Origin: Eledone cirrhosa
Taxonomy: Eukaryota
DNA: 64,000 nucleotides
Assembly (NCBI GenBank): GCA_964016885.1
Contig: OZ024743.1
Location: 86,118,001-86,182,000 of the forward strand
Reading direction: 5' to 3'
Of the stretch, positions 3,801 through 48,278 are shown piece after piece; the first letter of the stretch is position 1, and the number at the start of each line of letters is the position of its first letter. The notes under the pieces were generated by a model. That model saw only the letters and a list, made by a program, of their open reading frames with translations. It was not told the origin of the DNA and did no database searches. The translations under genes were made by a program, and so were the position numbers.

Positions 3801-4165
3801 ATACATGAACAGCAAAGCATAAAAGAACTAAATGAGAAATTAGGTATAAGAGGGATCAGATGCTGTTTACTCGAGAGAAGACTACATTGGTATGGTCACG
3901 AGATGCGCATGAAAGACAACAGCTGTATAAAAAAGTGGGTGTCATGACAAAAAAACACACAGCTCACGCTGTAATGTGGCCGTGTAGGTAACACGGTAAA
4001 AACCTCACAGTCCACACTGTAAACGTGGTTGGTGTTAGGAAGGGCATCCAGCCGTAGAAAACCCGCCAGACAGTCCTATACGAGCGAGACGAGCAAGTGG
4101 GACAATCCCCATCTAAACCCAAGCTAGCGTGGAAGATAGATGTTAACCGATGATGATGATGATGA
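812..4165 (+). pseudogene. RTE LINE family B, near full-length decayed copy (APE + RT + PHD)
   Basis: ORF pieces 943-1422, 1467-1670, 1961-2146, 2133-3947 with GTMNVG, CCIQETRW, SAYAP, YADD; stop codons and frameshifts; deletion near 3935; (GAT)n tail. Confidence 0.95.
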
Positions 4166-5411: not shown

Positions 5412-5575
5412 ATATATATATATATATATACGATATTAACAAATGGAAACTATATTTATAAAACCATATTTATTTCATTATACATATTTCAAGGACACCA
5501 AGTTAAATTATGGTGTGCTTTCATCAGATAAAATATAATATAGAGCAGTTTTATAAATAAATATTGACATACCGT

Positions 5576-5918
5576 GGAGGCACATGGCTTAGTGGTTAGA
5601 ACATTGGCCTTGCAATCGAAAGGTTGTGAGTTCAATTCTCAGACCGGGTGATGTGTTGTTTCCTTGAGCAAGACACTTTATTTCACATTGCTCCAGTTTA
5701 CTCAGCTGTAGAAATGAGATGATAGGGACTGGGGTCCATATCATTCCACTGCAAAGTGGTTGTGTAGGTGCCACGGCAAAAAAGCACGCAGCACTCACTG
5801 CAAATGAGGTTGGTGTTAGGAAGGGCATCCAGCTGTAGAAATCAAGCCAAAATCAGTTACCGTCCCACCCTTGCAAGCAGGGAAAAAGCGGACGTAAAAT
5901 GAAATGATGATGATGATG
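5576..5918 (+). mobile_element. tRNA-derived CORE/Ceph-type SINE (family 1)
   Basis: A box TGGCTTAGTGG, B box GAGTTCAATTC, CORE-like CCTTGAGCAAGACACTT, RTE-UTR-derived body, (GAT)n tail. Confidence 0.85.
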
Positions 5919-6429
5919 AAATGATACCCTTAAAGAATGCAACCATTACTGTTGGAAGCTCCTGGATAGTATCTATATTTGCTTGTTGTATCCCAACAAT
6001 TTAAATAGAACTTTTACATATATATATATATATATTATATATATAATATATATTATATATATATATTATATATATAATATATATTATATATATATTATAT
6101 ATATATAATATATATTATATATATATATATCATCATCATCATCATCACCGTTTTACGTCCGTTCTTCCACGCTAGCATGGGTTAGACGGGTTGTCCTGTT
6201 GTGGGCAGTGTCTGGTCGGCTGACCATGCCTTGCTCATACAGGAACTGATCTGGCTTGATTTCTACAGCTGGATGCCCTTCCTAACACCAACCTCATTTA
6301 CAGTGAGTGCTGGGTGCTTTTTCGTGGCGCCTACACGTCCACTTTACAGTGTGGGCTGGGTGCTTTTTTGCCGTGGCACCTCCACGGCCACCTTGCGGTG
6401 GGGGGGGGGGGGCATATTGTTTATATGCT

Positions 6430-9400
6430 TCAGCATGTACCCATGGGAGGTCGGGTACCCTGTATTACTGCGTGACGCCAGAAGTCACGGTCGTGTGTCA
6501 TTGACTTTGAGAGGTGTAGTTGGGTAAGGTCGGCTTTTATCACCTCATCCCAAGTCATCTTGGGTCTCCCCACTCTGCGGTTTCCATCAACTTCTAGTGC
6601 TCTGCACCTTTTTATGCAGCTGTCATCCTTCATACGCATCACATGTCCATACCAGCGTAACCGCCTCTCCTGCACGCAGCATTTGATTCCTCTTATGCTC
6701 AGTCTCTCTCTCAATTCCTTTATGCTTTGTCGTTCACGTATATTACTGTTACACATCCATCGGAGCATGCAGGCTTCGTTTCTCTCTAATCTACGTAAGT
6801 CTTCCACCTTCAGCGCCCAGGTCTCACTACCATGCAACATCGCTGTTCGGATACACGCATCATACAGTCTGCCTTTCATTCTGAGGGAGAAGCCTTTTGC
6901 AGCTAGCAGTGGTAGTAGTTCCCTAAACTTCTTCCATCCCGTTCTTACCCTAGTTATTGTACTTTCTGAGCACCCACCTCCGTTGCTAATTCGGTCACCT
7001 AGGTAGCAGAAGCTGTCTACTGTTTCTACAGGGCCCTCCCAGAGATTGGTGGTACTTGTTTCCTGTGGCTGTTTGCTTGCTGTTTCAGCACAGCTGCTGC
7101 ATGTGAATCCTACATTCTTAATTAAGCTTCCTGAGATCCCGCTACATCTCTTGTGTACCCATTGTTTGCATTTGGGGCAGAGAATGGAGTTCCTACCTAC
7201 ACCTTTCCTACATACTGAGCAAGGCCATTTCCCTGAGGGGATCTGGGTTCTGTTTTCTCGTCTACTTACAAGGACCTTAGTCTTTGTCATGTTGACTTTG
7301 AGGCCCTTTCTCTCTAGTCCCTGCTTCCAGGTTTGGAATTTATTCTCTAGTTCTACCATAGATTCAGCTATGAGTGCGAGGTCATCAGCATACAGGAGTT
7401 CCCATGGGCATCCGGTCTTAAACTCCTCCGTTATTGCCTGCAGGACTATGATGAACAGGAGAGGGCTAAGAACAGAGCCCTGGTGTACCCCAACCTGTAC
7501 GCTAAATTCCTCGCTATACTCATTGCCAATCCTAACTTTGCTGACTGCTCCCCTATACATGGCTTGTACCGCTTTCACAAGCCATTCATCTACTCCTAGT
7601 TTTCTAAGAGCCCACCAGATTACTGCACGTGGAACTCTGTCAAAGGCTTTCTCAAGGTCGACAAATGCCAAGTAGAGTGGCTTACTTTTAGCTAGGTACT
7701 TTTCCTGTAATTGCCTCACAAGGAAGAGGGCATCAGTGGTGCCTTTCCCTGGTACAAACCCAAATTGCATCTCGTCTATATTCACCCGGTCCCTAATCAG
7801 CTGTGCTATAACTCTTTCTGTTAATTTCATGACCTGGTCCATCAACTTTATACCTCTATAGTTTCCTCTATCTAGTGCATCGCCTTTACCTTTGTAGCAG
7901 TTGACAATGATGCTACTGCACCAATCTTTTGGTATGGCCCCCTCTAGTATTACCTGGTTAACGATACGTGTGGTTATAGTGTGACCTACAGACCCAGATG
8001 CCTTCAGCATCTCGGCAGCTATACCCGATGGACCGGTTGCCTTCCCTATCTTCATATCTCTGATTGCCTTACTTACTACGCTGCCGCTGACTTGTACTGC
8101 TGGTCCCTCTATAGGGTCTACGTGGGGTAGGGTCTCTTCTTCCCATGCATTCTCCTCATTTAGTAATCTATCATAATGACTCTTCCATGCATCTTTCTTC
8201 TCAGCACTTGTGAGGGCAAGCTCACCTTTATCATTCCGGATACACTTCTCTCCAATGACATCACAACTATCTCTGACACACTGCCTCGCAATCTTGAATA
8301 CCTCCTGTTTCTGGTCCTCACGTTGTAAAACATGCTTGAATTTTCTATCCTCTGCTTCCCTCCTAGCTAAGTATACTTGTCGCCTAGCTTCCCTCTTGGT
8401 CTCTATGTAATGTACCCTGCTCCCCCCGTTCTTCCATTCTTTCCATGCCTGTCTCTTGGCCTTGACTGCTTCATCTACCTTATTGTTCCACCACCAAGTC
8501 ACTCTCCTCCTGCTTGAGGTCTTACTCCAGCCACAAACCTCATCCGTCGCCTCTAGTAAGTTATTTTTTAGGAACTCCCAGTTCTCTTCTACGTTAAATG
8601 TCTGTATCTGTTCTTCTTTACTGTCGTAGGCGTTGAGTAAAATATCTTTAAATCTGTTACTGGTTGAGGGGACTTTCAGCTTCCAGATCTTTCTTCTCCA
8701 GGTTGGCCTCTGTTTCAGGGCTCGTCTAGTTCTGACCGTGAGGTCGCTGACAACTAAGCTATGTTGGGATGTACATTCCTCACTAGGGAAGGCTTTTGTG
8801 TTTACGACCGTCCATCTGTCACGTCCTCTGATGAGGATAAGATCTAACTGACTAGAGTGCTCCCCTGATCTATAGGTGATCAGGTGGTTGTCGGGTTTTT
8901 TAAAGTTTGTGTTACATATCGACATGTCATTGGCGTCGCAGAATTCTAGAAGTCTGAATCCTTCCTCATTCCTTGTGCCAACTCCATGGCCTCCATGTAC
9001 TCTATTGAAGCCGTCGCAGTGTTTACCTACGTGTCCGTTAAAATCTCCTGCAATGATTAGGAAGTCCTTGTCGTCTGTTAGAGCAGTAGTGTGTATTAGG
9101 GACTCGTAAAACCTATCCTTAAGTTCGTCTGGCAGCCCCGATTGGGGTGCGTAAGCTGATATTATTGTGGTAATTGTCTTATTCAGGACTAGTCTAAGTT
9201 TAATGATTCTTGCATTTACCCTGTACACTGAGATTACTTTATCTACCCACTTGTCAGCTAATAGTATACCTACACCACCCATCCCATCGTCATTTCCCAC
9301 CCAGAAAAATTTGTAGCACTGGCTTTTTCCTACAAGGACTCTAGCAGACCCTCCTCTCCATCTAGTCTCTTGCACACAGCATACATCAACTTCCTTTCGC

Positions 9401-9549
9401 TCTAGCATTTCTACGATTTCTCCTGCTCTTCCTTTCATTGAGCCTACATTGATGGTACCAACTCGGAGTTTTGGGCATTTGTCGACACTCGTAGGGGAGG
9501 GTCTCTGGGTTGGCGCTTCACGTGGGTGCTTGGTAGCTCGCAGATTCAT
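6430..9549 (-). CDS. RTE polyprotein (APE endonuclease + reverse transcriptase with inserted PHD finger), 1039 aa, intact
   Basis: GTINVG, QETRW, AGDFNGH, SQH, QFGF, FVDLEKAFD, QGSVLSP, YADD, C4HC3 motif, [13 protein letters not shown]. Confidence 0.97.
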   Translation of the reverse strand: MNLRATKHPREAPTQRPSPTSVDKCPKLRVGTINVGSMKGRAGEIVEMLERKEVDVCCVQETRWRGGSARVLVGKSQCYKFFWVGNDDGMGGVGILLADKWVDKVISVYRVNARIIKLRLVLNKTITTIISAYAPQSGLPDELKDRFYESLIHTTALTDDKDFLIIAGDFNGHVGKHCDGFNRVHGGHGVGTRNEEGFRLLEFCDANDMSICNTNFKKPDNHLITYRSGEHSSQLDLILIRGRDRWTVVNTKAFPSEECTSQHSLVVSDLTVRTRRALKQRPTWRRKIWKLKVPSTSNRFKDILLNAYDSKEEQIQTFNVEENWEFLKNNLLEATDEVCGWSKTSSRRRVTWWWNNKVDEAVKAKRQAWKEWKNGGSRVHYIETKREARRQVYLARREAEDRKFKHVLQREDQKQEVFKIARQCVRDSCDVIGEKCIRNDKGELALTSAEKKDAWKSHYDRLLNEENAWEEETLPHVDPIEGPAVQVSGSVVSKAIRDMKIGKATGPSGIAAEMLKASGSVGHTITTRIVNQVILEGAIPKDWCSSIIVNCYKGKGDALDRGNYRGIKLMDQVMKLTERVIAQLIRDRVNIDEMQFGFVPGKGTTDALFLVRQLQEKYLAKSKPLYLAFVDLEKAFDRVPRAVIWWALRKLGVDEWLVKAVQAMYRGAVSKVRIGNEYSEEFSVQVGVHQGSVLSPLLFIIVLQAITEEFKTGCPWELLYADDLALIAESMVELENKFQTWKQGLERKGLKVNMTKTKVLVSRRENRTQIPSGKWPCSVCRKGVGRNSILCPKCKQWVHKRCSGISGSLIKNVGFTCSSCAETASKQPQETSTTNLWEGPVETVDSFCYLGDRISNGGGCSESTITRVRTGWKKFRELLPLLAAKGFSLRMKGRLYDACIRTAMLHGSETWALKVEDLRRLERNEACMLRWMCNSNIRERQSIKELRERLSIRGIKCCVQERRLRWYGHVMRMKDDSCIKRCRALEVDGNRRVGRPKMTWDEVIKADLTQLHLSKSMTHDRDFWRHAVIQGTRPPMGTC

Positions 9550-9789
9550 ATTTCATCTATTGATTCAGAGTTGCTCGTGTATTCCCAGCTCATCCATCCA
9601 TAACGGTGGGAAAATTGAGGGCTAGAAGAACAGTGGTGGTGGGGTAATGGCAGGGTGTGTTGGGATGCGCCAGAGGAGGAGAGAGTTAGTTAGGCAGGTA
9701 GTAGCAGCAGCAGTGGAAATGGCATGCTAGGTTTGATTGGTCGAATAGACTATGGTGGTGTGTGGGGGTGGGGGGGAGGGAAATTGTGA

Positions 9790-10496
9790 GGTAGGAACTG
9801 AGGGTCGCATGGTAAATATCCAAGTTAATACTACATCAGTAAAATTAACAATAATAACGTCATGAAAAAAACTACTAAGAGAAACCCTAGAAAATTTATC
9901 GCTAATACAGCAGGGAAAATTTAACGCTAATACAGCAGGGAACATCATAATATTAACGACAATATGTAGGCTAAAATACCTTCGTAGATTAGATGGATGG
10001 CTGGAATAATTGGAGTCAGCTCTAGTGATACATTTTAGCAGAGAAGAATGGGAAAGTATCTTATCTCTTCAATATTTTCAGATTGAATGAATTAGGTTAA
10101 AGACAGGGTAGTAAGCCTTAAAGAAGTGCATAGAGAGGGGGGGTAGGAACTGAGGGTCGCATGGTAAATATCCAAGTTAATACTACATCAGTAAAATTAA
10201 CAATAATAACGTCATGAAAAAAACTACTAAGAGAAACCCTAGAAAATTTATCGCTAATTCAGCAGGGAAAATTTAACGCTAATACAGCAGGGAACATCAT
10301 AATATTAACGACAATATGTAGGCTAAAATACCTTCGTAGATTAGATGGATGGCTGGAATAATTGGAGTCAGCTCTAGTGATACATTTTAGCAGAGAAGAA
10401 TGGGAAAGTATCTTATCTCTTCAATATTTTCAGATTGAATGAATTAGGTTAAAGACAGGGTAGTAAGCCTTAAAGAAGTGCATAGAGAGGGGGGGT
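9790..10496. repeat. Two-copy ~352 bp tandem repeat at the 5' end of RTE-A
   Basis: gtaggaactgagggtcgc at 9791 and 10143; copies almost identical. Confidence 0.9.
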
Positions 10497-10617
10497 ATAT
10501 ATATATAATATATAATATATATTATATATATATATTATATATATATAATATATATTATATATATATATATATATATTGGAAAATGTGTGTAATCCTTGGT
10601 ACAGTTAGGTATATTAA

Positions 10618-11670
10618 GACAGGGGGGAAGAAAAAAATGGCTTCACTTGTGCTTTCAACAAATTTATTTTCTTCACAAAATCCAAAAATAATTTTTTTCC
10701 GGATTAGAAAAAATTTCTATGCATGTATGTGTGAACGGATGTATATATACGGACATATGTATATGTGTGTGTGTGTGTGTGTGTATGTGTGTATGTGTGT
10801 GTGTATGTGTATATATGTATATTTAGTTATGTATCTTTATGTGTGTATATATGTGTATATGTATGTATATATATATATATATATATATATACCCATGTGG
10901 AGGTATGAGTACATATTCGTGTGTGTACGTATGTGTATATGTGTTTTTATATGTGTCTTTATATGTTTTTGTGTATGTATGTGGATGTATATGTACATGG
11001 GTGTGTGATTAATGGTGTGTGCCTATATATTCCTACATATGCCCGTGTGTGTATGTACGTATATACGCACATATGTGTGTGTTGAACAAAGGACTAATTT
11101 TGGGATGGACGTAGAAAAATTCTTCAGGGTGAAAAATAATTGTTTACAAGCTTGGCAGGTGCTGTTTGCTTATGACCATTTTAGATACAAAGGAATACTA
11201 AAAGCTTTTTCCACTGAATAAAGGAATTTTTCGAGAATGACCGGGGCAGGCCGCGCTTGCTACATTTCTCCCCACCCAACCCTACTCACTGTCTCAACTC
11301 ATTACTGCTATTAACATTTCTCAACACACCTACACCCCTACATTTATTAAAGGGGGAGAGGAAAAAAAAAAAAAAAAAAAACCCCACCGCACCACAGACA
11401 TGTTAAATCCCTATATATAGAACAACACACCACATACACATCAGTTTGACAAGCGCACCTCAGTGTGAAAGGTCTTTCTAAATCGAAACAATACCTCCTA
11501 CGTTAACCAAGAACTCCTAAGACCTAACCAACAACCAACGACTTAATTTATAAAATAAAAAAAAATAAAAAAAATGCTTTCTAATCCGGAAAAAAATTCT
11601 TTTTGGATTTTGTGAAGAAAATAAATTTGTTGAAAGCACAAGTGAAGCCATTTTTTTCTTCCCCCCTGTC
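10618..11670. mobile_element. Non-autonomous DNA transposon with ~95 bp TIRs, flanked by TTAA
   Basis: TTAA|GACAGGGGGGAAG...ccggattagaaa is inverted at 11578-11670|TTAA; no coding capacity. Confidence 0.75.
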
Positions 11671-11754
11671 TTAATATATATATATATATATATATATAAA
11701 TATATTATATATATATATATATTATATATATAATATATATTATATATATATAAT

Positions 11755-14691
11755 TTCCTAATCATTGCAGGAGATTTTAACGGACACGTAGGTAAACACT
11801 GCGACGGCTTCAATAGAGTACATGGAGGCCATGGAGTTGGCACAAGGAATGAGGAAGGATTCAGACTTCTAGAATTCTGCGACGCCAATGACATGTCGAT
11901 ATGTAACACAAACTTTAAAAAACCCGACAACCACCTGATCACCTATAGATCAGGGGAGCACTCTAGTCAGTTAGATTTTATTCTCATCAGAGGACGTGAC
12001 AGATGGACGGTCGTAAACACAAAAGCCTTCCCTAGTGAGGAATGTACATCCCAACATAGCTTAGTTGTCAGCGACCTCACGGTCAGAACTAGACGAGCCC
12101 TGAAACAGAGGCCAACCTGGAGAAGAAAGATCTGGAAGCTGAAAGTCCCCTCAACCAGTAACAGATTTAAAGATATTTTACTCAACGCCTACGACAGTAA
12201 AGAAGAACAGATAGAGACATTTAACGTAGAAGAGAACTGGGAGTTCCTAAAAAATAACTTACTAGAGGCGGCGGATGAGGTTTGTGGCTGGAGTAAGACC
12301 TCAAGCAGGAGGAGAGTGACTTGGTGGTGGAACAATAAAGTAGATGAAGCAGTCAAGGCCAAGAGACAGGCATGGAAAGAATGGAAGAACGGGGGGAGCA
12401 GGGTACATTACATAGAGACCAAGAGGGAAGCTAGGCGACAAGTATACTTAGCTAGGAGGGAAGCAGAGGATAGAAAATTCAAGCATGTTTTACAACGTGA
12501 GGACCAGAAACAGGAGGTATTCAAGATTGCGAGGCAGTGTGTCAGAGATAGTTGTGATGTCATTGGAGAGAAGTGTATCCGGAATGATAAAGGTGAGCTT
12601 GCCCTCACAAGTGCTGAGAAGAAAGATGCATGGAAGAGTCATTATGATAGATTACTAAATGAGGAGAATGCATGGGAAGAAGAGACCCTACCCCACGTAG
12701 ACCCTATAGAGGGACCAGCAGTACAAGTCAGCGGCAGCGTAGTAAGTAAGGCAATCAGAGATATGAAGATAGGGAAGGCAACCGGTCCATCGGGTATAGC
12801 TGCCGAGATGCTGAAGGCATCTGGGTCTGTAGGTCACACTATAACCACACGTATCGTTAACCAGGTAATACTAGAGGGGGCCATACCAAAAGATTGGTGC
12901 AGTAGCATCATTGTCAACTGCTACAAAGGTAAAGGCGATGCACTAGATAGAGGAAACTATAGAGGTATAAAGTTGATGGACCAGGTCATGAAAGTAACAG
13001 AAAGAGTTATAGCACAGCTGATTAGGGACCGGGTGAATATAGACGAGATGCAATTTGGGTTTGTTCCAGGGAAAGGCACCACTGATGCGCTCTTCCTTGT
13101 GAGGCAATTACAGGAAAAGTACCTAGCTAAAAGTAAGCCACTCTACTTGGCATTTGTCGACCTTGAGAAAGCCTTTGACAGAGTTCCACGTGCAGTAATC
13201 TGGTGGGCTCTTAGAAAACTAGGAGTAGATGAATGGCTTGTGAAAGCGGTACAAGCCATGTATAGGGGAGCAGTCAGCAAAGTTAGGATTGGCAATGAGT
13301 ATAGCGAGGAATTTAGCGTACAGGTTGGGGTCCACCAGGGCTCTGTTCTTAGCCCTCTCCTGTTCATCATAGTCCTGCAGGCAATAACGGAGGAGTTTAA
13401 GACCGGATGCCCATGGGAACTCCTGTATGCTGATGACCTCGCACTCATAGCTGAATCTATGGTAGAACTAGAGAATAAATTCCAAACCTGGAAGCAGGGA
13501 CTAGAGAGAAAGGGCCTCAAAGTCAACATGACAAAGACTAAGGTCCTTATAAGTAGACGAGAAAACAGAACCCAGATCCCCTCAGGGAAATGGCCTTGCT
13601 CAGTATGTAGGAAAGGTGTAGGTAGGAACTCCATTCTTTGCCCCAAATGCAAACAATGGGTACACAAGAGATGTAGCGGGATCTCAGGAAGCTTAATTAA
13701 GAATGTAGGATTCACATGCAGCAGCTGTGCTGAAACAGCAAGCAAACAGCCACAGGAAACAAGTACCACCAATCTCTGGGAGGGCCCTGTAGAAACAGTA
13801 GACAGCTTCTGCTACCTAGGTGACCGAATTAGCAACGGAGGTGGGTGCTCAGAAAGTACAATAACTAGGGTAAGAACGGGATGGAAGAAGTTTAGGGAAC
13901 TACTACCACTGCTAGCTGCAAAAGGCTTCTCCCTCAGAATGAAAGGCAGACTGTATGATGCGTGTATCCGAACAGCGATGTTGCATGGTAGTGAGACCTG
14001 GGCGCTGAAGGTGGAAGACTTACGTAGATTAGAGAGAAACGAAGCCTGCATGCTCCGATGGATGTGTAACAGTAATATACGTGAACGACAAAGCATAAAT
14101 GAATTGAGAGAGAGACTGAGCATAAGAGGAATCAAATGCTGCGTGCAGGAGAGGCGGTTACGCTGGTATGGACATGTGATGCGTATGAAGGATGACAGCT
14201 GCATAAAAAGGTGCAGAGCACTAGAAGTTGATGGAAACCGCGGAGTGGGGAGACCCAAGATGACTTGGGATGAGGTGATAAAAGCCGACCTTACCCAACT
14301 ACACCTCTCAAAGTCAATGACACACGACCGTGACTTCTGGCGTCACGCAGTAATACAGGGTACCCGACCTCCCATGGGTACATGCTGAAGCATATAAACA
14401 ATATGCCCCCCCCCCCCCCACCGCAAGGTGGTCGTGGAGGTGCCACGGCAAAAAAGCACCCAGCCCACACTGTAAAGTGGACGTGTAGGCGCCACGAAAA
14501 AGCACCCAGCACTCACTGTAAATGAGGTTGGTGTTAGGAAGGGCATCCAGCTGTAGAAATCAAGCCAGATCAGTTCCTGTATGAGCAAGGCATGGTCAGC
14601 CGACCAGACACTGCCCACAACAGGACAACCCGTCTAACCCATGCTAGCGTGGAAGAACGGACGTAAAACGGTGATGATGATGATGATGATG
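11755..14691 (+). mobile_element. RTE LINE family A, 5'-truncated young copy
   Basis: Reverse complement of ~6129-9065 with very few differences; (GAT)n tail; inside (TA)n. Confidence 0.97.
11893..14388 (+). CDS. 5'-truncated RTE ORF (partial APE, intact RT and PHD), 831 aa
   Basis: About 7 aa differences from 6430-9549 over the shared part. Confidence 0.9.
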   Translation: MSICNTNFKKPDNHLITYRSGEHSSQLDFILIRGRDRWTVVNTKAFPSEECTSQHSLVVSDLTVRTRRALKQRPTWRRKIWKLKVPSTSNRFKDILLNAYDSKEEQIETFNVEENWEFLKNNLLEAADEVCGWSKTSSRRRVTWWWNNKVDEAVKAKRQAWKEWKNGGSRVHYIETKREARRQVYLARREAEDRKFKHVLQREDQKQEVFKIARQCVRDSCDVIGEKCIRNDKGELALTSAEKKDAWKSHYDRLLNEENAWEEETLPHVDPIEGPAVQVSGSVVSKAIRDMKIGKATGPSGIAAEMLKASGSVGHTITTRIVNQVILEGAIPKDWCSSIIVNCYKGKGDALDRGNYRGIKLMDQVMKVTERVIAQLIRDRVNIDEMQFGFVPGKGTTDALFLVRQLQEKYLAKSKPLYLAFVDLEKAFDRVPRAVIWWALRKLGVDEWLVKAVQAMYRGAVSKVRIGNEYSEEFSVQVGVHQGSVLSPLLFIIVLQAITEEFKTGCPWELLYADDLALIAESMVELENKFQTWKQGLERKGLKVNMTKTKVLISRRENRTQIPSGKWPCSVCRKGVGRNSILCPKCKQWVHKRCSGISGSLIKNVGFTCSSCAETASKQPQETSTTNLWEGPVETVDSFCYLGDRISNGGGCSESTITRVRTGWKKFRELLPLLAAKGFSLRMKGRLYDACIRTAMLHGSETWALKVEDLRRLERNEACMLRWMCNSNIRERQSINELRERLSIRGIKCCVQERRLRWYGHVMRMKDDSCIKRCRALEVDGNRGVGRPKMTWDEVIKADLTQLHLSKSMTHDRDFWRHAVIQGTRPPMGTC

Positions 14692-15090
14692 AATATATAT
14701 TATATATATATAATATATATTATTATATATATATACATAATATATATATTATATATATATAATATATATATAATATATATTATATATATATATATAATAT
14801 ATATAATATATATAAATATATATAATATATATATTATATATATATATATATAATATATATATTATATATATTTATATATATATATACATATATATATATA
14901 TAATATATATATTATATATATATATATATTATATATAATATATATATAATATATATATATTATATATAATATATATATTATATATATATATTATATATAT
15001 ATATATATTATATATATATATTATATATATATATATTATATATATATTATATATATATATATATATAATATATATATTATAATATATATA

Positions 15091-15503
<413 letters not shown>

Positions 15504-15511
15504 ATATATAT

Positions 15512-16711
15512 ATCATCATCATCATCATCATCACCGTTTTACGTCCGTTCTTCCACGCTAGCATGGGCTAGACGGGTTGTCCTGTTGTGGGCAGTGTCTG
15601 GTCGGCTGACTATGCCTTGCTCATACAGGAACTGATCTGGCTTGATTTCTACAGCTGGATGCCCTTCCTAACACCAACCTCATTTACAGTGAGTGCCGGG
15701 TACTTTTTCGTGGCGCCTACACGTCCACTTTACAGTGTGGGCTGGGTGCTTTTTTGCCGTGGCACCTCCACGACCACCTTGCGGTGGGGGGTGTGGGGGA
15801 ATATTGTTTATATGCTTCAGCTTGTACCCATGGGAGGTCGGGTACTCTGTATTACTGCGTGATGCCAGAAGTCACGGTCGTGTGTCATTGTCTTTGAGAG
15901 GTGTAATTGGGTAAGGTCGGCTTTTATCACCTCATCCCAGGTCATCTTGGGTCTCCCCACTCCGCGGTTTCCATCAACTTCTAGTGCTCTGCACCTTTTT
16001 ATGCAGCTGTCATCCTTCATACGCATCACATGTCCATACCAGCGTAACCGCCTCTCCTGCACACAGCATTTGATTCCTCTTATGCTCAGTCTCTCTCTCA
16101 ATTCATTTATGCTTTGTCGTTCACGTATATTACTGTTACACATCCATCGGAGCATGCAGGCTTCGTTTCTCTCTAATCTACGTAAGTCTTCCACCTTCAG
16201 CGCCCAGGTCTCACTACCATGCAACATTGCTGTTCGGATACACGCATCATACAGTCTGCCTTTCATTCTGAGGGAGAAGCCTTTTGCAGCTAGCAGTGGT
16301 AGTAGTTCCCTAAACTTCTTTCATCCCGTTCTTACCCTAGTTATTGTACTTTCTGAACACCCACCTCCGTTGCTAATTCAGTCACCTAGTTAGCAGAAGC
16401 TGTCTACTGTTTCTACAGGGCCCTCCCAGAGATTGGTGGTACTTGTTTCCTGTGGCTGTTTGCTGCTTGCTGTTTCAGCACAGCTGCTGCATGTGAATCC
16501 TACATTCTTAATTAAGCTTCCTGAGATCCCGCAACATCTCTTGTGTACCCATTGTTTGCATTTGGGGCAGAGAATGGAGTTCCTACCTACACCTTTCCTA
16601 CATACTGAGCAAGGCCATTTCCCTGAGGGGATCTGGGTTCTGTTTTCTCGTCTACTTACAAGGACCTTAGTCTTTGTCATGTTGACTTTGAGACCCTTTC
16701 TTTCTAGTCCA
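15512..16711 (-). mobile_element. RTE family A, 5'-truncated copy (PHD to 3' tail), one premature stop
   Basis: Matches ~13497-14690; TAA at 16390-16392. Confidence 0.95.
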
Positions 16712-16778: not shown

Positions 16779-16782
<4 letters not shown>

Positions 16783-16989
16783 ACGAAGGAAATGTGGTAA
16801 GGAACCAGGTGGACCATAACGCACCAAAGTACTCAATACTTGAGGTAGTAGAGTGGGTAATAGGAACCAGTAAGACCCCGACAGCTGAGCTCAAGCCGTT
16901 TCGACGGCTAATTCTGGACTGAATTAGCCGTCCAGAATTAGCCGTCGAAACGGCTTGAGCTCAGCTGTCGGGGTCTTACTGGTTCCTAT
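16779..16989. mobile_element. Short terminal fragment with a perfect 60-bp fold-back, possibly Penelope-like
   Basis: Arms 16860-16919 and 16930-16989; contains GAAAcgg and GTATTGAGT; embedded in (TA)n. Confidence 0.55.
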
Positions 16990-18470: not shown

Positions 18471-18634
18471 ATATATATATATATATATATGATATTAACA
18501 AATGGAAACTATATTTATAAAACCATATTTATTTCATTATACATATTTCAAGGACACCAAGTTAAATTATGGTGTGCTTTCATCAGATAAAATATAATAT
18601 AGAGCAGTTTTATAAATAAATATTGACATACCGT

Positions 18635-18978
18635 GGAGGCACATAGCTTAGTGGTTAGAACATTGGCCTTGCAATCGAAAGGTTGTGAGTTCAATTCTCA
18701 GACCGGGTGATGTGTTGTTTCCTTGAGCAAGACACTTTATTTCACATTGCTCCAGTTTACTCAGCTGTAGAAATGAGATGATAGGGACTGGGGTCCATAT
18801 CATTCCACTGCAAAGTGGTCGTGTAGGTGCCACGGCAAAAAAGCACGCAGCACTCACTGCAAATGAGGTTGGTGTTAGGAAGGGCATCCAGCTGTAGAAA
18901 TCAAGCCAAAATCAGTTACCGTCCCACCCTTGCAAGCAGGGAAAAAGCGGACGTAAAATGAAATGATGATGATGATGA
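18635..18978 (+). mobile_element. SINE family 1 (segmentally duplicated copy)
   Basis: Near-identical to 5576-5918, including flanks. Confidence 0.85.
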
Positions 18979-19352
18979 AATAATACCCTTAAAGAATGCA
19001 ACCATTACTGTTGGAAGCTCCCGGATAGTATCTATATTTGCTTGTTGTATCCCAACAATTTAAATAGAACTTTTACATATATATATATATATATATTATA
19101 TATATAATATATATTATATATATATATTATATATATAATATATATTATATATATATTATATATATATAATATATATTATATATATATATATATATTATAT
19201 ATATATATTATATATATATAATATATATTATATATATATATTATATATATAATATATATTATATATATATATATTATATATATATATTATATATATATAA
19301 TATATATTATATATATATATATATTATATATATATATTATATATATATATAA

Positions 19353-19384
<32 letters not shown>

Positions 19385-19425
19385 TGGAAAATGTGTGTAA
19401 TCCTTGGTACAGTTAGGTATATTAA

Positions 19426-19567
19426 GACAGGGGGGAAGAAAAAAATGGCTTCACTTGTGCTTTCAACAAATTTATTTTCTTCACAAAATCCAAAAAGAAT
19501 TTTTTTCCGGATTAGAAAAAATTTGTATGCATGTATGTGTGAACGGATGTATATATATACGGACATA

Positions 19568-19627
<60 letters not shown>

Positions 19628-20499
19628 TGTGTATGTGTATATATGTATATTTAGTTATGTATCTTTATGTGTGTATATATGTGTATATGTATGTATATAT
19701 ATATATATATATATATATACCCATGTGGAGGTATGAGTACATATTCGTGTGTGTACGTATGTGTATATGTGTTTTTATATGTGTCTTTATATGTTTTTGT
19801 GTATGTATGTGGATGTATATGTACATGGGTGTGTGATTAATGGTGTGTGCCTATATATTCCTACATATGCCCGTGTGTGTATGTACGTATATACGCACAT
19901 ATGTGTGTGTTGAACAAAGGACTAATTTTGGGATGGACGTAGAAAAATTCTTCAGGGTGAAAAATAATTGTTTACAAGCTTGGCAGGTGCTGTTTGCTTA
20001 TGACCATTTTAGATACAAAGGAATACTAAAAGCTTTTTCCACTGAATAAAGGAATTTTTCGAGAATGACCGGGGCAGGCCGCGCTTGCTACATTTCTCCC
20101 CACCCAACCCTACTCACTGTCTCAACTCATTACTGCTATTAACATTTCTCAACACACCTACACCCCTACATTTATTAAAGGGGGAGAGGAAAAAAAAAAA
20201 TTAAAAAAACCCCACCGCACCACAGACATGTTAAATCCCTATATATAGAACAACACACCACATACACATCAGTTTGACAAGCGCACCTCAGTGTGAAAGG
20301 TCTTTCTAAATCGAAACAATACCTCCTACGTTAACCAAGAACTCCTAAGACCTAACCAACAACCAACGACTTAATTTATAAAATTTAAAAAAAAAAAAAA
20401 AAATGTTTTCTAATCCGGAAAAAAATTCTTTTTGGATTTTGTGAAGAAAATAAATTTGTTGAAAGCACAAGTGAAGCCATTTTTTTCTTCCCCGCTGTC
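19426..20499. mobile_element. Second copy of the TTAA-flanked TIR element
   Basis: Near-identical to 10618-11670, including the left flank. Confidence 0.75.
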
Positions 20500-20567
<68 letters not shown>

Positions 20568-20944: not shown

Positions 20945-21248
20945 TGATGAGGTCATAGCCATTCAATGGCTATCATCGAAATATACATAGCAGTAAATAA
21001 AGGATTGAGTTCATGCAATTGACTTATGTTTTGTCACTGTATATATATATATATATACAGTGAATATATATATATATACAGTGACGAAACATAATTCAAT
21101 TGCATGAACTCAATCCTTTATTTACTGCTATGTATATTTCGATGATAGCCATTGAATGCCTATGACCTCATCAAGCAGTTAGTCAGTTCTTAGATATGCC
21201 AGCTCGGTATTTATAGTGTTGATGGTATCAGAGCCTTGGGACATATAT

Positions 21249-21308
<60 letters not shown>

Positions 21309-21627
21309 CATATATATATATATTATATATATATAATATATATATTATATATATATTATATATATATTATATATATATATATATAAATATATATATATAA
21401 TATATATTATATATATTATATATATATATATATATCCATATATATATGTATATATATATAATATATGTCCCAAGGCTCTGATACCATCAACACTATAAAT
21501 ACCGAGCTGGCATATCTAAGAACTGACTAACTGCTTGATGAGGTCATAGGCATTCAATGGCTATCATCGAAATATACATAGCAGTAAATAAAGGATTGAG
21601 TTCATGCAATTGAATCATGTTTCGTCA

Positions 21628-21630
<3 letters not shown>
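20945..21630. mobile_element. Cluster of three ~165 bp hammerhead-bearing repeats in alternating orientation (20945-21041 +, 21079-21243 -, 21466-21630 +)
   Basis: Direct sequence comparison; separated only by (TA)n. Confidence 0.85.
21530..21585 (+). ncRNA. Hammerhead ribozyme, C3U variant with long stem II
   Basis: actgc-TTGATGA-ggtcataggcattcaatggctatcatc-GAAA-tataca-TA-gcagt; TATAAATA at 21494 upstream, AATAAA directly downstream. Confidence 0.8.
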
Positions 21631-21707
<77 letters not shown>

Positions 21708-21871
21708 ATATATATATATATATATACGATATTAACAAATGGAAACTATATTTATAAAACCATATTTATTTCATTATACATATTTCAAGGACACCAAGTT
21801 AAATTATGGTGTGCTTTCATCAGATAAAATATAATATAGAGCAGTTTTATAAATAAATATTGACATACCGT

Positions 21872-22215
21872 GGAGGCACATAGCTTAGTGGTTAGAATAT
21901 TGGCCTTGCAATCGAAAGGTTGTGAGTTCAATTCTCAGACCGGGTGATGTGTTGTTTCCTTGAGCAAGACACTTTATTTCACATTGCTCCAGTTTACTCA
22001 GCTGTAGAAATGAGATGATAGGGACTGGGGTCCATATCATTCCACTGCAAAGTGGTCGTGTAGGTGCCACGGCAAAAAAGCACCCAGCGCTCACTGTAAA
22101 TGAGGTTGGTGTTAGGAAGGGCATCCAGCTGTAGAAATCAAGCCAAAATCAGTTACCGTCCCACCCTTGCAAGCAGGGAAAAAGCGGACGTAAAATGAAA
22201 TGATGATGATGATGA
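21872..22215 (+). mobile_element. SINE family 1 (third duplicated copy)
   Basis: Same sequence and flanks as 5576 and 18635. Confidence 0.85.
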
Positions 22216-22321
22216 AATGATACCCTTAAAGAATGCAACCATTACTGTTGGAAGCTCCTGGATAGTATCTATATTTGCTTGTTGTATCCCAACAATTTAA
22301 ATAGAACTTTTACATATATAT

Positions 22322-23022
22322 ATCATCATCATCATCATCGTTTAACGTCCATGTTCCACGCTTGCATGAGTTTGGACGGGAGTTTTCTCACTTGAGGCAA
22401 GAGTGGTTGTCTTGCTCGCATAGGACTGTCTGGCGGGTTTTCTACAGCTGGATGCCCTTCCTAACACCAACCACATTTACAGTGTGAGACTGGGAGGTTT
22501 TTACCGTGTTGCCTACACGGCCACATTACAGCGTGGACTGTGTTTTATTGTCGTGACACTTACACGATCTCATTTGTTTCGGCCTGGATGTTGTGGCACC
22601 AACGTAACTTTACATTGAAAGGGGCGGTGTGGATGGGGTGGGGGTGGTGGGACGGGGGTGTATTTTGTTAGAGATGCCTACTGACTGTAGTAGGTTTTAC
22701 TTTGTATTTAGGTAAGGCGGGTCTTCTCTATTACTGAGTGCCGCCAAAGATCTCGGTCCAGTGACATTGTCTTGGAGAGGTGTAAGTGTGTGAGGTCGGA
22801 GTTTATCAGGTCGTCCCAGGTTTTTCTGGGTCTGCCTACTCCGTGGCTACCGTCTATCTTTATTGCCCTGCACTTTTTTATACGGCAGTCGTCTTTCATG
22901 CGCATCACATGACCATACCAACGTAGCCTTCTCTCGAGTAAACAACATCTGATCCCTCTTATTTCTAATTTTTCCCTTAGTTCGTTTATGGTTTGCCGTT
23001 CGCGTATATTACTATTACACAT
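22322..23022 (-). mobile_element. RTE family B 3' fragment
   Basis: [14 protein letters not shown]...IEKTRLT, 3' UTR and (GAT)n matching ~30015-30714. Confidence 0.93.
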
Positions 23023-23186
23023 CAGTGACGAAACATAAGTCAATTGCATGAACTCAATCCTTTATTTACTGCTATATATATTTTGATGATAGCCATTGAA
23101 TGGCTATGACCCCATCAGGCAGTTAGTCAGTTCTTAGATATGCCAGCTCGGTATTTATAGTGTCGATGGTATCAGAGCCTTGGGAC

Positions 23187-23188
<2 letters not shown>
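23023..23188 (-). mobile_element. Diverged copy of the ~165 bp hammerhead repeat
   Basis: Core reads CTGATGG...AAAA-tatata-TA (canonical C3, but A9 and G12 mutated). Confidence 0.8.
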
Positions 23189-23277
<89 letters not shown>

Positions 23278-26999: not shown

Positions 27000-27128
27000 T
27001 AAAATAACAGATTAAAGTTTAAGCAAAGAATCGCTGCTTTCACCCTTAACGGGATCTTCTGAAACTAACAAAGTCAATCTGTAAACGCAGAACTGGATAT
27101 TTCAAAAAACGTTATATATATATATATA

Positions 27129-30100
27129 AAATCTGGACGCTCAGCGACAATGCCAAAGTTAAAGACAAACACACCTCGTGGACGAGAATGCGAGCATGCC
27201 TCTTTGTTTCGGCCGCGGATGGCTAACACAACCCCATCTCCCCCCGCTCCCCACCTTTCCCACCCCCCAAACGCAATCCAAAACTTCAGATTTGGTACCT
27301 TGAATGTAGGCACCTTAAAGGGTCGCTCTAACGAGGTTGTAGAAATGCTTGAACGTAAGGAGGTCGATGTTTGTTGTATTCAAGAGACCAGGTGGAGGGG
27401 TGGATCTGCTAGATTCATTGTTAGATTCATTGTGGGTAGAAAACGATGCTATAAGCTTTTCTGGGTGGGAAATGACAATGGGCTGGGTGGGGTAGGAATT
27501 ATGGTAGCAGAAAAGTGGGCAGATAAGATAATAGACGTAAATAGAGTGAACGACAGAATAATTAAAATAAGACTTGTCCTCAATAGAACCACGGTGACAG
27601 TAATATCCGCGTACGCACCCCAATCCGGACTGCCCAGCACTATAAAAGACAGATTCTATGAGACACTGATGCTCACTACCTCCCAAATAACCGACAGTGA
27701 CTATATAATTATTGCAGGCGACCTAAACGGTCACGTTGGACAACATTGTGATGGCTACGACGAAATCCATGGAGGCTATGGGTTTGGTACTAGAAATGAG
27801 GAAGGCTCCAGAATCCTGGAATTCTGTGACGCAAATAACCTAACTATCTGCAACACTAACTTCAAAAAAAGAGACAATCACTTGATCACCTACAGATCAG
27901 GGGAACATACCAGCCAGGTAGATTATATCCTTACCAGAAGACGTGACAAAGTGACTGTTGTAAACACTAAATCCCTCCCCCATGAAGAATGCACCTCCCA
28001 ACATAGACTGATAATTAGCGACCTAATAGTCAGGACGAGACGTACTAGACAACAGAAGAGGACTATCCTCAGGAGAAAAATATGGAAGCTAAAGGACCCC
28101 ACAGCCAAAAATAAATTCCAAAGCATATTACTTGATGCTTTCGACAGTAAGGAAGAGCAATTAGAGTCGTACAAGGTAGAGGAACAGTGGGAATTCCTGA
28201 AAGCAAACCTGCTGACGGCGACAGACGAAGTCTGTGGCTGGAGCAGGCCTGTAGGCAGGAGGAGAGTAACATGGTGGTGGAACAGTAAGGTGGAGGGGTC
28301 AATTAAGGCCAAAAAGCAGGCTTGGAAAGTATGGCGGGATGGGGGAAGCAGAGAAGACTATCAAGTGGCCAGGAGGGAAGCTAGGAGACAAGTGTACTTC
28401 GCAAGAAGGGAAGCAGAGGAAAGAAAGTTCAAGCATGTTCTACAATGTGAGGACCAAAAACGTGAGGTGTTCAGGATTGCTAGGCAATGTGTCAAGGAGA
28501 ACAGTGATATTGTCGGGGAGAAGTGTGTACTTAACGATGACGGCGTACTTGCCATCACCGACGCCGATAAGAAGGTAGCTTGGATGTGTCACTATGAAAG
28601 GCTACTAAATGAGGAGAATAAATGGGAGAAAGACAGTCTCCCCCACATCGACCCAATAGAGGGACCAGCAGTGTTAGTCAAGGGTAGTATAATAAGTAAG
28701 GCAATCAAAGATATGAAGACAGGCAAGGCGGCTGGGCCTTCGGAAATAGTTGCTGAGATGCTGAAGGTATCTGGTACGGTGGGACACACCATGGTCACCC
28801 GGATAGTCAACCAAGTCATACAGAATGGGGTTGTTCCGAAGGACTGGCGTAGCAGCATCATCGTTAACTGTTATAAGGGTAAAGGAGATGCCCTAGATAG
28901 GAGTAACTATAGAGGCATTAAATTAATCGACCAGGTCATGAAGGTCACGGAAAAAGTAATAGCGCAACTAATCAGAGAGCGAATTGATCTAGATGAAATG
29001 CAGTTCGGGTTTGTGTCAGGAAAAAGTACCACAGACGCTCTTTTCATTGTACGACAACTACAGGAGAAGTACCTAGCTAAAAGTAAACCCCTATACTTAG
29101 CTTTCGTCGACTTGGAGAAGGCCTTCGACAGAGTCCCCCGTTCCATTATCTGGTGGGCTCTTAGAAAACTAGGTGTTGATGAATGGCTTGTGAGAGCTAT
29201 ACAAGCCATGTATAAAGAAACAGTCAGCAAGGTTAGAATTAACAACGAATATAGTGAAGAGTTTAGTGTAAAAGTTGGTGTTCATCAGGGATCTGTTCTT
29301 AGCTTCCTACTATTTATTATTGCCCTCCAGGCTATAACAGTGGAGTTCAAGACCGGCTGCCCATGGGAACTCCTATACGCAGATGATCTAACGCTCATAG
29401 CTGAATCAATGACCGAGCTAGAGAAGAAATTCCAAACATGGAAGTACGGCCTAGAATCAAAAGGCCTTAAAATTAACCTGGCTAAGACTAAAGTTCTAGT
29501 TTGTAAGAAAGAAAATAAGGCGGCGGTCCCCTCCGGGAAGTGGCCATGCGCAGAGTGTAGGAAAGGCGTAGGTAGAAACTCCATTTTGTGTCCCAAATGC
29601 AAAGTTTGGGTGCATAAAAGATGTAGTGGGATCACAGGTAAGCTAACTAAGAACATAGATTTTACATGTGGCCGGTGTTCCGGCGCAATAAGTAGCAGCA
29701 AGTGCCCACAAAATACTAGCTCTTTCAGCTGCGCAGAGGGTTCTATAGAAATAGTGGACAGCTTCCGTTACCTGGGTGACAAAATCAGCAGTGGGGGAGG
29801 GTGCTCTGAAAGTACAGTAGCTAGAGTCAGAACTGGGTGGAAAAAATTCAGAGAGCTTATACCACTATTAGCCGCTAAAGGGTTCTCCCTAAAAATGAAA
29901 GGCAGGTTGTACGATGCCTGCATACGAACAGCAATGTTGCATGGCAGTGAGACCTGGGCATTGTGTGCAGAAGATATACGCAGACTAGAGAGAAACGAAG
30001 CTTGCATGCTCCGCTGGATGTGTAATAGTGAACGACAAAGCATAAACGAACTAAGGAAAAAATTAGAAATAAGAGGGATCAGATGTTGTCTACTCGAGAG

Positions 30101-30714
30101 AAGGCTACGTTGGTATGGTCACGTAATGCGCATGAAGGACGATAGCTGTATAACAAAGTGCAGGGCAATAAAGATAGACGGTAGCCACGGAATAGGCAAA
30201 CCCAGAAAAACCTGGGATGAGCTGATAAACTCCGACCTCACACACTTACACCTCACCAAGACAATGTCACTGGACCGAGACCTTTGGCGGTACTCAGTAA
30301 TAGAGAAGACCCGCCTTACCTAAATACATAGTAAAACCTACTACAGCCAGTAGGCATCTCTAACAAAATACACCCCCGTCCCACCACCAACACCCCATCC
30401 ACACCACCCCTCCTATGTAAAGTTATGTTGGTGCCACAACATCCAGGCCGAAACAAATGAGATCGTGTAGGTGTCACGACAAAAAAACACACAGTCCACG
30501 CTGTAATGTGGCCGTGTAGGCAACACGGTAAAAACCTCCCAGACCCACACTGTAAATGTGGTTGGTGTTAGGAAGGGCATCCAACTGTAAAAAACCTGCC
30601 AGACAGTCCTATGCGAGCAAGACAATCACTCTTGCCTCAAGTGGGAATACCCCGTCCAAACCCATGCAAGCGTGGAACACGGACGTTAAACGTTGATGAT
30701 GATGATGATGATGA
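27129..30714 (+). mobile_element. RTE family B copy with intact ORF
   Basis: ORF plus 3' UTR and (GAT)n; 5' UTR truncated at a TA run. Confidence 0.97.
27150..30323 (+). CDS. RTE polyprotein (APE + RT with inserted PHD finger), 1057 aa
   Basis: All APE and RT motifs present; PHD at 29547-29678; in-frame 12-nt duplication (RFIVRFIV). Confidence 0.96.
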   Translation: MPKLKTNTPRGRECEHASLFRPRMANTTPSPPAPHLSHPPNAIQNFRFGTLNVGTLKGRSNEVVEMLERKEVDVCCIQETRWRGGSARFIVRFIVGRKRCYKLFWVGNDNGLGGVGIMVAEKWADKIIDVNRVNDRIIKIRLVLNRTTVTVISAYAPQSGLPSTIKDRFYETLMLTTSQITDSDYIIIAGDLNGHVGQHCDGYDEIHGGYGFGTRNEEGSRILEFCDANNLTICNTNFKKRDNHLITYRSGEHTSQVDYILTRRRDKVTVVNTKSLPHEECTSQHRLIISDLIVRTRRTRQQKRTILRRKIWKLKDPTAKNKFQSILLDAFDSKEEQLESYKVEEQWEFLKANLLTATDEVCGWSRPVGRRRVTWWWNSKVEGSIKAKKQAWKVWRDGGSREDYQVARREARRQVYFARREAEERKFKHVLQCEDQKREVFRIARQCVKENSDIVGEKCVLNDDGVLAITDADKKVAWMCHYERLLNEENKWEKDSLPHIDPIEGPAVLVKGSIISKAIKDMKTGKAAGPSEIVAEMLKVSGTVGHTMVTRIVNQVIQNGVVPKDWRSSIIVNCYKGKGDALDRSNYRGIKLIDQVMKVTEKVIAQLIRERIDLDEMQFGFVSGKSTTDALFIVRQLQEKYLAKSKPLYLAFVDLEKAFDRVPRSIIWWALRKLGVDEWLVRAIQAMYKETVSKVRINNEYSEEFSVKVGVHQGSVLSFLLFIIALQAITVEFKTGCPWELLYADDLTLIAESMTELEKKFQTWKYGLESKGLKINLAKTKVLVCKKENKAAVPSGKWPCAECRKGVGRNSILCPKCKVWVHKRCSGITGKLTKNIDFTCGRCSGAISSSKCPQNTSSFSCAEGSIEIVDSFRYLGDKISSGGGCSESTVARVRTGWKKFRELIPLLAAKGFSLKMKGRLYDACIRTAMLHGSETWALCAEDIRRLERNEACMLRWMCNSERQSINELRKKLEIRGIRCCLLERRLRWYGHVMRMKDDSCITKCRAIKIDGSHGIGKPRKTWDELINSDLTHLHLTKTMSLDRDLWRYSVIEKTRLT

Positions 30715-40900: not shown

Positions 40901-41278
40901 AGAATGCTCCGTTGGATGTGCAGTGTAAATGTGTGTGAACGACCCAGCATAAATGTGTTGAGAGAGAAACTATGTCTGAGAGGGATAGAATGTAGTGTAC
41001 GGGAGAGGAGATTGAGATGGTATGGACATGTGATGCGCATGGAGGATGACCGATGGGTGAAGAAGTGCCAGGAATTGCCAGTTGAAGGAAGACGTGGTAG
41101 AGGTAGACCACGAAAAACATGGGCGGAGGTGGTGAGAACAGACCTCAGATCATTGAAGCTCACGGTGGAGATGACGAGGGACCGTGACGAATGGAGAGAT
41201 GCTGTGCTGAATAAGACCCGTCCCACCCTTGCAAGCAGGGAAAAGCGGACGTAAAATGATGATGATGATGATGATGAT
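37993..41278 (+). pseudogene. RTE family C, near full-length, two frameshifts
   Basis: ORFs 38188-39009, 38970-39551, 39545-41254 together give APE+RT+PHD (40448-40579); very short 3' UTR and (GAT)n. Confidence 0.96.

Positions 41279-48247: not shown

Positions 48248-48278
<31 letters not shown>

What the first reader, a model, noticed from the sequence alone, without database searches (positions are those of the whole stretch)
20945..23188. Small hammerhead-bearing repeat arranged as alternating inverted copies in (TA)n
Seen: a ~165 bp unit with TATAAATA, a hammerhead with an unusually long (~11-12 bp) stem II, and AATAAA right after the cleavage site. It occurs six times (15091, 15455, 20945, 21079, 21466, 23023), nearly always TA-flanked and in tail-to-tail or head-to-head pairs. 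Copies vary at core positions (TTGATGA vs CTGATGG; GAAAtataca vs AAAAtatata), implying an ancestral CTGATGA...GAAAtatataTA. The far end on the opposite strand reads gtgacGAAAcataagTC, like half of a second, antisense hammerhead. No ORF. Inference: solo Penelope pLTRs or a retrozyme-like non-autonomous element, possibly with ribozymes in both polarities.
Basis: partly seen in the sequence, partly recalled or inferred. Interest (0 to 1): 0.74.

Follow-up and report, generated by a model that had tools for sequence, protein, structure and literature searches.

The report
Penelope hammerhead end, locally mirror-duplicated
The repeat is the short end-piece of an abundant Penelope-type jumping gene that carries a predicted self-cutting RNA; the six damaged copies here share a variant found nowhere else in the genome and were likely duplicated on the spot at TA repeats, and the proposed second, opposite-strand ribozyme is not there, so this is mostly a known kind of element.

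Summary
The six copies and the sense hammerhead are real. The 165-bp unit is the end (pLTR) of a roughly 4-kb Penelope-like retrotransposon with RT, C-terminal GIY-YIG and Hydra-clade motifs; 3,358 genomic copies end at the same base in (TA)n and 1,488 keep an intact hammerhead. None of the six window copies does. No antisense hammerhead: 0 of 18 parent tails have CTGANGA upstream. No head-to-tail arrays, so not a retrozyme. TATAAATA is a minority variant. The alternating arrangement is local: one haplotype occurs 5 times in 3 Gb, all in this window, inside an 18-kb mosaic of re-copied blocks joined at (TA)n; DNA template switching is the likely cause. The best lead is family-wide: 13 of 61 copies start at one site, far more than at the cleavage site or other TA words, as if reverse transcriptase starts inside the RNA and runs off its 5' end. 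The scan noted this element type before in this genome, and the run-off idea in another genome.

The parts
21466..21630 (+). Full 165-bp solo pLTR unit (unit positions 1-165) of the Penelope-like element
   Evidence: matches both pLTRs of full-length element L032
21530..21585 (+). Type I hammerhead fold in that copy: stem I 21530-21534/21581-21585, core 21535-21541 (C3 changed to U), long stem II 21542-21568, GAAA 21569-21572, (AU)-palindrome stem III (broken by one change), predicted cut after 21580
   Evidence: sequence; family core; folds; pair counts; cleavage not tested
21587..21592 (+). AATAAA, candidate polyadenylation signal
   Evidence: 118 of 130 outside copies; also in the sister family; function inferred
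21494..21501 (+). TATAAATA: minority variant of a TATAAACA-type word, not a conserved TATA box
   Evidence: 10 of 122 outside copies
21079..21243 (-). Full unit, 1 difference from the 21466 copy; head-to-head with it across a 222-bp degenerate (TA)n spacer
23023..23187 (-). Full unit, most divergent (7-8 differences); two core changes (A9, G12); 3' end joined to an RTE LINE stub
23023..23041 (+). Antisense half-motif (GAAAC-loop-GTC); the reverse complement of the element's main 3' end; no upstream catalytic half
20945..21039 (+). Partial unit 71-165, begins inside the core; tail-to-tail with the 21079 copy across 39 bp
15083..15197 (-). Partial unit 1-115, ends in the TA word of stem III
15456..15508 (+). 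Partial unit 1-53, ends at an internal CATAT word; with the previous copy and spacer it forms a block that repeats 21138-21513
   Evidence: 370 of 376 aligned letters identical, 36 gap letters
5430..6017 (+). Block X, first copy; repeated at 18491-19076 (99.3%) and 21726-22313 (99.0%)
6130..9063 (.). Block R (RTE LINE part); repeated inverted at 11755-14700 (99.5%) and directly at 15504-16710 (97.7%)
10576..11673 (+). Block Y; repeated at 19384-20502 (about 99%)
22340..23023 (-). 5'-truncated RTE LINE abutting the 23023 copy

Best explanation
The 165-bp unit is the end repeat (pLTR) of a 4-kb Penelope-like retrotransposon, likely of the Hydra clade, and the six copies here likely descend from one dead insertion that was re-copied in both orientations by DNA template switching at (TA)n tracts. 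Step 1 (shown): the parent has pLTR, 85-bp tail, RT, GIY-YIG nuclease, 3' UTR and a second pLTR; copies end at two fixed sites (+166/172 and +253) in (TA)n. Step 2 (inferred from the Anolis PLE in vitro work): the nuclease nicks (TA)n and reverse transcription starts inside the RNA at those two sites. Step 3 (inferred, about 55%): the fixed start of the solo unit is the 5' end of the RNA, so the unit is a run-off cDNA made from an RNA that the hammerhead had not cut. Step 4 (common origin shown by haplotype, about 85%; mechanism inferred, about 60%): after insertion the copy, its TA flank and neighbouring LINE and unique blocks were duplicated in several rounds, the self-complementary (TA)n allowing a switch to either strand. 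The sense hammerhead is predicted to work as a dimer in the parent; all six local copies are predicted inactive; there is no antisense ribozyme.
For: Parent; motifs RWR, DKT, CxCx5C, CxxC..E, CxH, GIY-like match the Hydra description. Ends: 3,358 at the main 3' site, 235 with tail; 937 start at TA|TGTCCC against 923 that extend upstream. Unbiased sample: 13 of 61 start at -3..+1, 0.4 expected; 7 more at +5..+16; 1 in the 20 nt upstream; at most 2 at any other ATAT word; 9 copies in 8 loci start there without a TA flank; at most 44 start at the cleavage site, 6 of 15 inspected being true starts. Local origin: haplotype 5 of 5 in the window; shared 2-bp deletion (4 of 130 outside), shared 3' G (4 of 138 outside), shared TA-flank start; block 15092-15503 repeats 21138-21513 with its spacer; LINE and unique blocks without pLTR are duplicated too; two partial copies lack the 3' end that retrotransposition needs.
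Against: The tree of 113 rows does not make the three full window copies one clade: the 23023 copy pairs with L011 (98/84), though gaps were ignored and the bootstrap had not settled. No protein tree, so the clade rests on motifs; the element is longer than typical Hydra elements and Pfam gave no RT hit and only a sub-threshold GIY-YIG hit. No RNA data for the start site. Upstream pLTRs of ORF-bearing copies start at -413, -387, -201, -130 and +107, none at +1, which simple run-off does not explain. Block ends were defined by cutting at TA tracts, so the 26 of 28 count is partly circular. Mis-assembly is not excluded (uninformative). Stem II covariation rests on one compensatory change between two families.
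Confidence: 0.8

Rival explanations
1. The mosaic was made by the Penelope enzyme itself: read-through RNAs from the founder pLTR carried flanking sequence and were inserted again into nearby (TA)n.
For: pLTRs can mobilise unrelated sequence in trans (PMC3846280 passages); the nuclease targets (TA)n; multi-copy loci with shared variants occur elsewhere (L059, L113); the 21466 copy is followed by block X.
Against: Blocks X1, X2, Y1 and R1 have no pLTR beside them; two partial copies lack the 3' end where every normal insertion starts; the family's own inverted pairs have no TA spacer (13 of 30 tail loci, arms within 4 nt); all haplotype copies stay within 8 kb.
Confidence: 0.25
2. The mosaic is partly an assembly artefact of a repeat-rich, TA-rich region.
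For: Long (TA)n tracts and 99%-identical blocks are hard to assemble; the contigs laid could not bridge the junction.
Against: Copies differ by 1-8 nested substitutions and blocks by 0.5-2.3%, which fits serial events of different age better than one error; both orientations occur.
Confidence: 0.12
3. The unit is a non-autonomous retrozyme that replicates through its own circular RNA.
For: About 937 copies have the same two ends and a type I hammerhead; animal retrozymes are proposed to derive from pLTRs (bioRxiv 10.64898/2026.07.22.740005).
Against: No head-to-tail junction (0 hits with spacer 0-20 nt); solo and parent-linked copies share the same variants and mix in the tree; unit ends do not sit at the cleavage site.
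Confidence: 0.06
4. The fixed 5' start is a pause or microhomology site (ATAT pairing with the TA target), not the RNA's 5' end.
For: The site carries ATAT and most solos are TA-flanked; 29 of 42 copies that reach it go on upstream.
Against: Equal or longer TA words at +47, +107, -159 and -199 collect 0-2 independent ends each; copies without TA flank start there too.
Confidence: 0.35
5. The element carries hammerheads in both polarities, as some viroids do.
For: A strict GAAAC-loop-GTC half-motif arises in only 1 of 2000 shuffles (pattern chosen after seeing it).
Against: A general half-motif arises in 150 of 2000 shuffles; 0 of 18 tail sequences have CTGANGA; none on the whole antisense strand from -443 to +253; the sister family lacks the antisense GAAAC.
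Confidence: 0.03

Closest known systems
Hydra clade of C-terminal EN+ Penelope-like elements, incl. Hydra-1_Obim (Craig et al. 2021, PMC8557442; passages, section 11 and parts of the supplement read)
   Same: RW(R), DKT, CxCx5C linker, CxxC and CxH around the EN end, (TA)n insertion, canonical hammerhead about 100 nt from the 3' end, tail and inverted 5'-truncated partners.
   Different: A different family from Hydra-1_Obim (its listed hammerhead differs); unit about 3.6-4.5 kb against generally under 3 kb; stem II longer than those in their table; stem III is a pure (AU) palindrome; tail 85 bp against 30-40.
[quoted passage not shown]
   Same: Type I, long helix II, short palindromic helix III predicted to need a dimer; mostly solo genomic copies; pairs on opposite strands 100-700 bp apart already reported.
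   Different: Here the opposite-strand copies are TA-spaced local duplicates of one founder, all with broken cores.
Poseidon_Ac of Anolis (Frangieh et al. 2024, PMC11167929; parts 1-2 of 4 read)
   Same: Two internal RT start sites that define the tail; AT-rich target; uncut RNA as template.
   Different: That paper, in the parts read, does not describe a fixed 5' end of short copies; different clade.
Animal non-LTR retrozymes (PMC7229834, passages; bioRxiv 10.64898/2026.07.22.740005, part 1 of 5)
   Same: Short non-coding unit with type I hammerhead, related to pLTRs.
   Different: No head-to-tail arrays, no separate lineage, direct sequence continuity with a coding parent.

Membership tests
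EN+ Penelope-like element | One ORF with RT followed by GIY-YIG nuclease | tested here: met
   730-aa open frame in L135 with RT motif and GIY-like motif; Pfam GIY-YIG E 0.002, under the curated cut-off, no RT hit
EN+ Penelope-like element | Partial-tandem pLTRs, optional tail, inverted 5'-truncated partner | tested here: met
   L032, L132, L134-L137, L139; 13 of 30 tail loci have an abutting inverted arm
Hydra clade | RWK-type motif, DKT for DKG, no GxKF/Y | tested here: met
   RWR and DKT present, GxKF/Y not found in the two L135 frames
Hydra clade | CxCX5C linker; CxxC and CxH around conserved E and N | tested here: met
Hydra clade | CCHH motif absent from the nuclease | tested here: inconclusive
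   none seen by eye; no alignment to reference PLE nucleases
Hydra clade | (TA)n insertion and canonical hammerhead near the 3' end | tested here: met
Hydra clade | Typical (described as 'generally', not defining) length under 3 kb | tested here: not met
   pLTR-to-pLTR spacing 3.6-4.5 kb in 5 loci
Hydra clade | Placement in the RT tree | not tested
   reference proteins were seen only in a supplement and compared by eye
Type I hammerhead ribozyme | CUGANGA and GAAA core, three helices, UH site | tested here: met
   family: 93 of 118, 1,488 exact copies; window copies 0 of 6 intact
Type I hammerhead ribozyme | Covariation in helices | tested here: inconclusive
   one pair changed on both sides and one G.U to G-C between two families; 9 of 500 shuffles as high
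Type I hammerhead ribozyme | Self-cleavage | not testable with these tools
   needs an assay
Non-LTR retrozyme | Head-to-tail tandem repeats with a hammerhead in each unit | tested here: not met
   0 genome hits; none in the loci
Non-LTR retrozyme | Circular RNA intermediate | not testable with these tools
   no RNA holder listed
Both-polarity ribozyme RNA (viroid-like) | Complete hammerhead on the antisense strand | tested here: not met
   0 of 18

The most novel reading that the evidence does not exclude
The solo 165-bp units are integrated 'strong-stop' cDNAs: the transcript starts at -3..+1 of the upstream pLTR and ends by cleavage (+115) or polyadenylation in the downstream one, so the RT start sites (+170, +253) exist only near its 5' end; RT primes there from nicked (TA)n, runs off after 165 nt, and either integrates or jumps to the repeated sequence at the RNA's 3' end, as LTR elements do. 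About a fifth of all copies would be fossils of that step.
Probability: 0.35. Interest if true: 0.65.

Novelty: new member of a known kind. Interest (0 to 1): 0.3.

Why it matters
As filed, it is one more Hydra-type Penelope family and one locally rearranged locus: modest. Two points have use. First, inverted hammerhead repeats in (TA)n can be duplication scars and should be haplotyped before a new element architecture is claimed. Second, the sharp 5' hot spot in a family of several thousand copies gives a cheap test (CAGE or 5' RACE) of how Penelope elements turn an internally primed RNA into full and more-than-full-length copies, an open question named in PMC8557442 and PMC11167929.

Tried and rejected
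Rfam scan: no hammerhead model hit; only TA-driven microRNA matches under their thresholds. Pfam: no RT hit on the 730-aa frame. RNA evidence: no RNA holder listed. Laying three contig sets of one sample on 22800-23192 could not bridge the junction and says nothing either way. Tree of full copies: star-like, window clade not recovered. TATA-box reading rejected. Antisense hammerhead rejected, also in a circular reading, since no CTGANGA lies on that strand. Retrozyme arrays rejected. A 'passenger family fused at the cleavage site' idea was weakened: 11 of 25 loci share a downstream flank too, so the fragment was largely amplified inside another repeat. One search used a list one entry short (60 of 61); one search corrects it. 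Literature: five searches; (Penelope-like, strong-stop, strand transfer, template jump; 3 of 4 terms) listed one unrelated paper, which is the only basis for saying the strong-stop reading was not found in print; subscription papers and bioRxiv supplements were not searchable. Look-ups of earlier findings by sequence and near this place returned nothing.

Full report
Observation. Eleven of twelve ends touch (TA)n; the exception joins an RTE LINE stub. The sense strand has a type I hammerhead layout with an 11-position stem II, an (AU)-palindrome stem III and AATAAA six bases after the predicted cut. The genome is about 3.0 Gb; from that, and from the by-eye likeness of the parent protein to Hydra-1_Obim, I infer an octopus-type cephalopod.

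The parent. A genome search gave 387 candidates, 40 scored, 30 fetched. Ten of the 26 non-window loci among L001-L030 extend upstream of the unit. L032 holds pLTR, tail, RT, GIY-YIG, 3' UTR and a second pLTR 3.95 kb on; of nine more stretches fetched, L132, L134-L137 and L139 show the same plan, and L135 has a 730-aa open frame. It carries RWR, DKT, CxCx5C, CxxC..E and CxH and no GxKF/Y, the features given for the Hydra clade (PMC8557442 section 11). Pfam support is weak, no tree was built, and the element is longer than typical, so the clade is likely rather than shown.

The hammerhead. 93 of 118 outside copies have the intact core and 1,488 copies match a natural intact 56-nt motif exactly. 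A sister family keeps the fold with one compensatory change, a G.U to G-C change and the same C.C mismatch; that is one event, so modest support. Co-folding pairs the two stem III palindromes into 8 bp, as proposed for PLE hammerheads (PMC4209133). No window copy is intact: three have C3 changed to U, one has A9 and G12 changed, two are cut short. TATAAATA is in 10 of 122 outside copies; AATAAA in 118 of 130.

No antisense ribozyme. In the parent the unit's end runs on into an 85-bp tail. None of 18 distinct tail sequences has CTGANGA upstream of the antisense GAAA, none lies on that strand from -443 to +253, and the sister family lacks the half-motif. The strict half-motif is rare in shuffles (1 of 2000) but was chosen after the fact; a general one appears in 150 of 2000.

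Not a retrozyme. No head-to-tail junction with a 0-20 nt spacer exists in the assembly. Solo and extended copies carry the same variants at similar rates and mix in a star-like tree.

How copies end. 3,358 exact matches end at the main site in (TA)n, 235 continue into the tail, as with the two internal RT start sites of the Anolis element (PMC11167929). At the 5' side 937 start at TA|TGTCCC and 923 extend. I fetched the first 60 places of the list (61 copies, chosen by 3' end only): 13 start at -3..+1 against 0.4 expected, 7 at +5..+16, 1 in the 20 nt upstream, and at most 2 independent ones at any other ATAT word. Nine copies in eight loci start there with no TA flank. At the cleavage site at most 44 start, and only 6 of 15 inspected are true starts. 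I infer that the site is the RNA's 5' end (it reads TCATAT, initiator-like by recalled consensus; D. virilis Penelope starts inside its upstream pLTR, PMC2377424 passages) and that uncut RNA is the usual template. Against this, ORF-bearing copies have upstream pLTRs that begin at -413 to -130 or +107, which needs a jump, a circle or read-through; no RNA run was available.

Why the copies alternate here. The family's own inverted pairs are head-to-head with arms within 4 nt and no TA spacer (13 of 30 tail loci). TA-spaced or tail-to-tail partners are rare: 0 of 30 solo loci, 2 of 60 unbiased loci. The window's 19-nt haplotype occurs five times in the genome, all in the five window copies that cover it. 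The copies also share a 2-bp deletion (4 of 130 outside), a 3' G (4 of 138 outside) and the first TA-flank interruption. Block 15092-15503 repeats 21138-21513 with its spacer. Between 5.4 and 23.2 kb a unique block occurs three times, another twice, and a LINE segment three times in both orientations at 97.7-99.5%, the neighbour changing across (TA)n tracts. Two partial copies stop at internal TA words and lack the 3' end that retrotransposition starts from. Serial DNA template switching at self-complementary (TA)n fits best; long TA repeats form cruciforms and stall repair (abstract of bioRxiv 10.64898/2026.01.20.700634; PMC2621351 seen only in the listing). Capture by the PLE enzyme (PMC3846280 passages) and mis-assembly remain open; the tree does not group the 23023 copy with the other two, and laying contigs did not help. 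Similar local duplicates with shared variants occur at L059 and L113.

Verdict. A new family of a known kind in a locally rearranged locus. The scan has noted Hydra-type pLTR hammerheads several times in this genome and the run-off reading in another genome; I had noted that reading before seeing it and do not count it as support. Interest 0.3.

Noticed in passing
window 16779-16989: A second small TA-flanked element with a 130-bp palindrome holding GAAAC on both arms and no CTGANGA; similar pieces lie in L005, L010, L021, L023, L029, L031. Likely the folded-back end of another Penelope family.
   Followed up: partly
L216-L240; L157, L173, L199: The last 55 bp of the pLTR, starting at the predicted cleavage site, sit behind an unrelated 250-bp repeat; 149 exact junction matches; 11 of 25 loci share the downstream flank, 2 lack the pLTR part, others end in long (TA)n.
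   Followed up: partly
L079, L092, L095, L149, L034:196-346: Sister hammerhead family (CTGAAGA core) with the same long stem II, C.C mismatch, (AU) stem III, AATAAA and a small hairpin at the tail start; L034 holds it as a mirror pair.
   Followed up: partly
window 47306-49265 (-): Fragments of another Penelope-like RT, Naiad-like by recalled motifs.
   Followed up: no
window 929-3937, 6430-9552, 27069-30323, 38173-41254, 51969-54544: At least three families of RTE-type LINEs; two copies have open frames over 1,000 aa.
   Followed up: no
unit +10..+21 (window 21475-21486): The word GCTCTGATACCA recalls the 3' end of plant initiator tRNA (from memory, untested); probably chance in an animal element.
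   Followed up: no
L142, L143, L145, L147, L152-L154: The (TA)4 of stem III has expanded to (TA)6-8 in 7 of 15 loci inspected: a microsatellite inside a ribozyme helix.
   Followed up: partly
window 9790-10497: Near-perfect tandem duplication of about 350 bp (99.7%) inside the mosaic.
   Followed up: no
window 36563-37183 (+): Helicase-like fragment of Helitron type by recalled motifs.
   Followed up: no
L134:7004-7798 and L031 (about 6140-6620): RT and nuclease fragments of other Hydra-like families.
   Followed up: no
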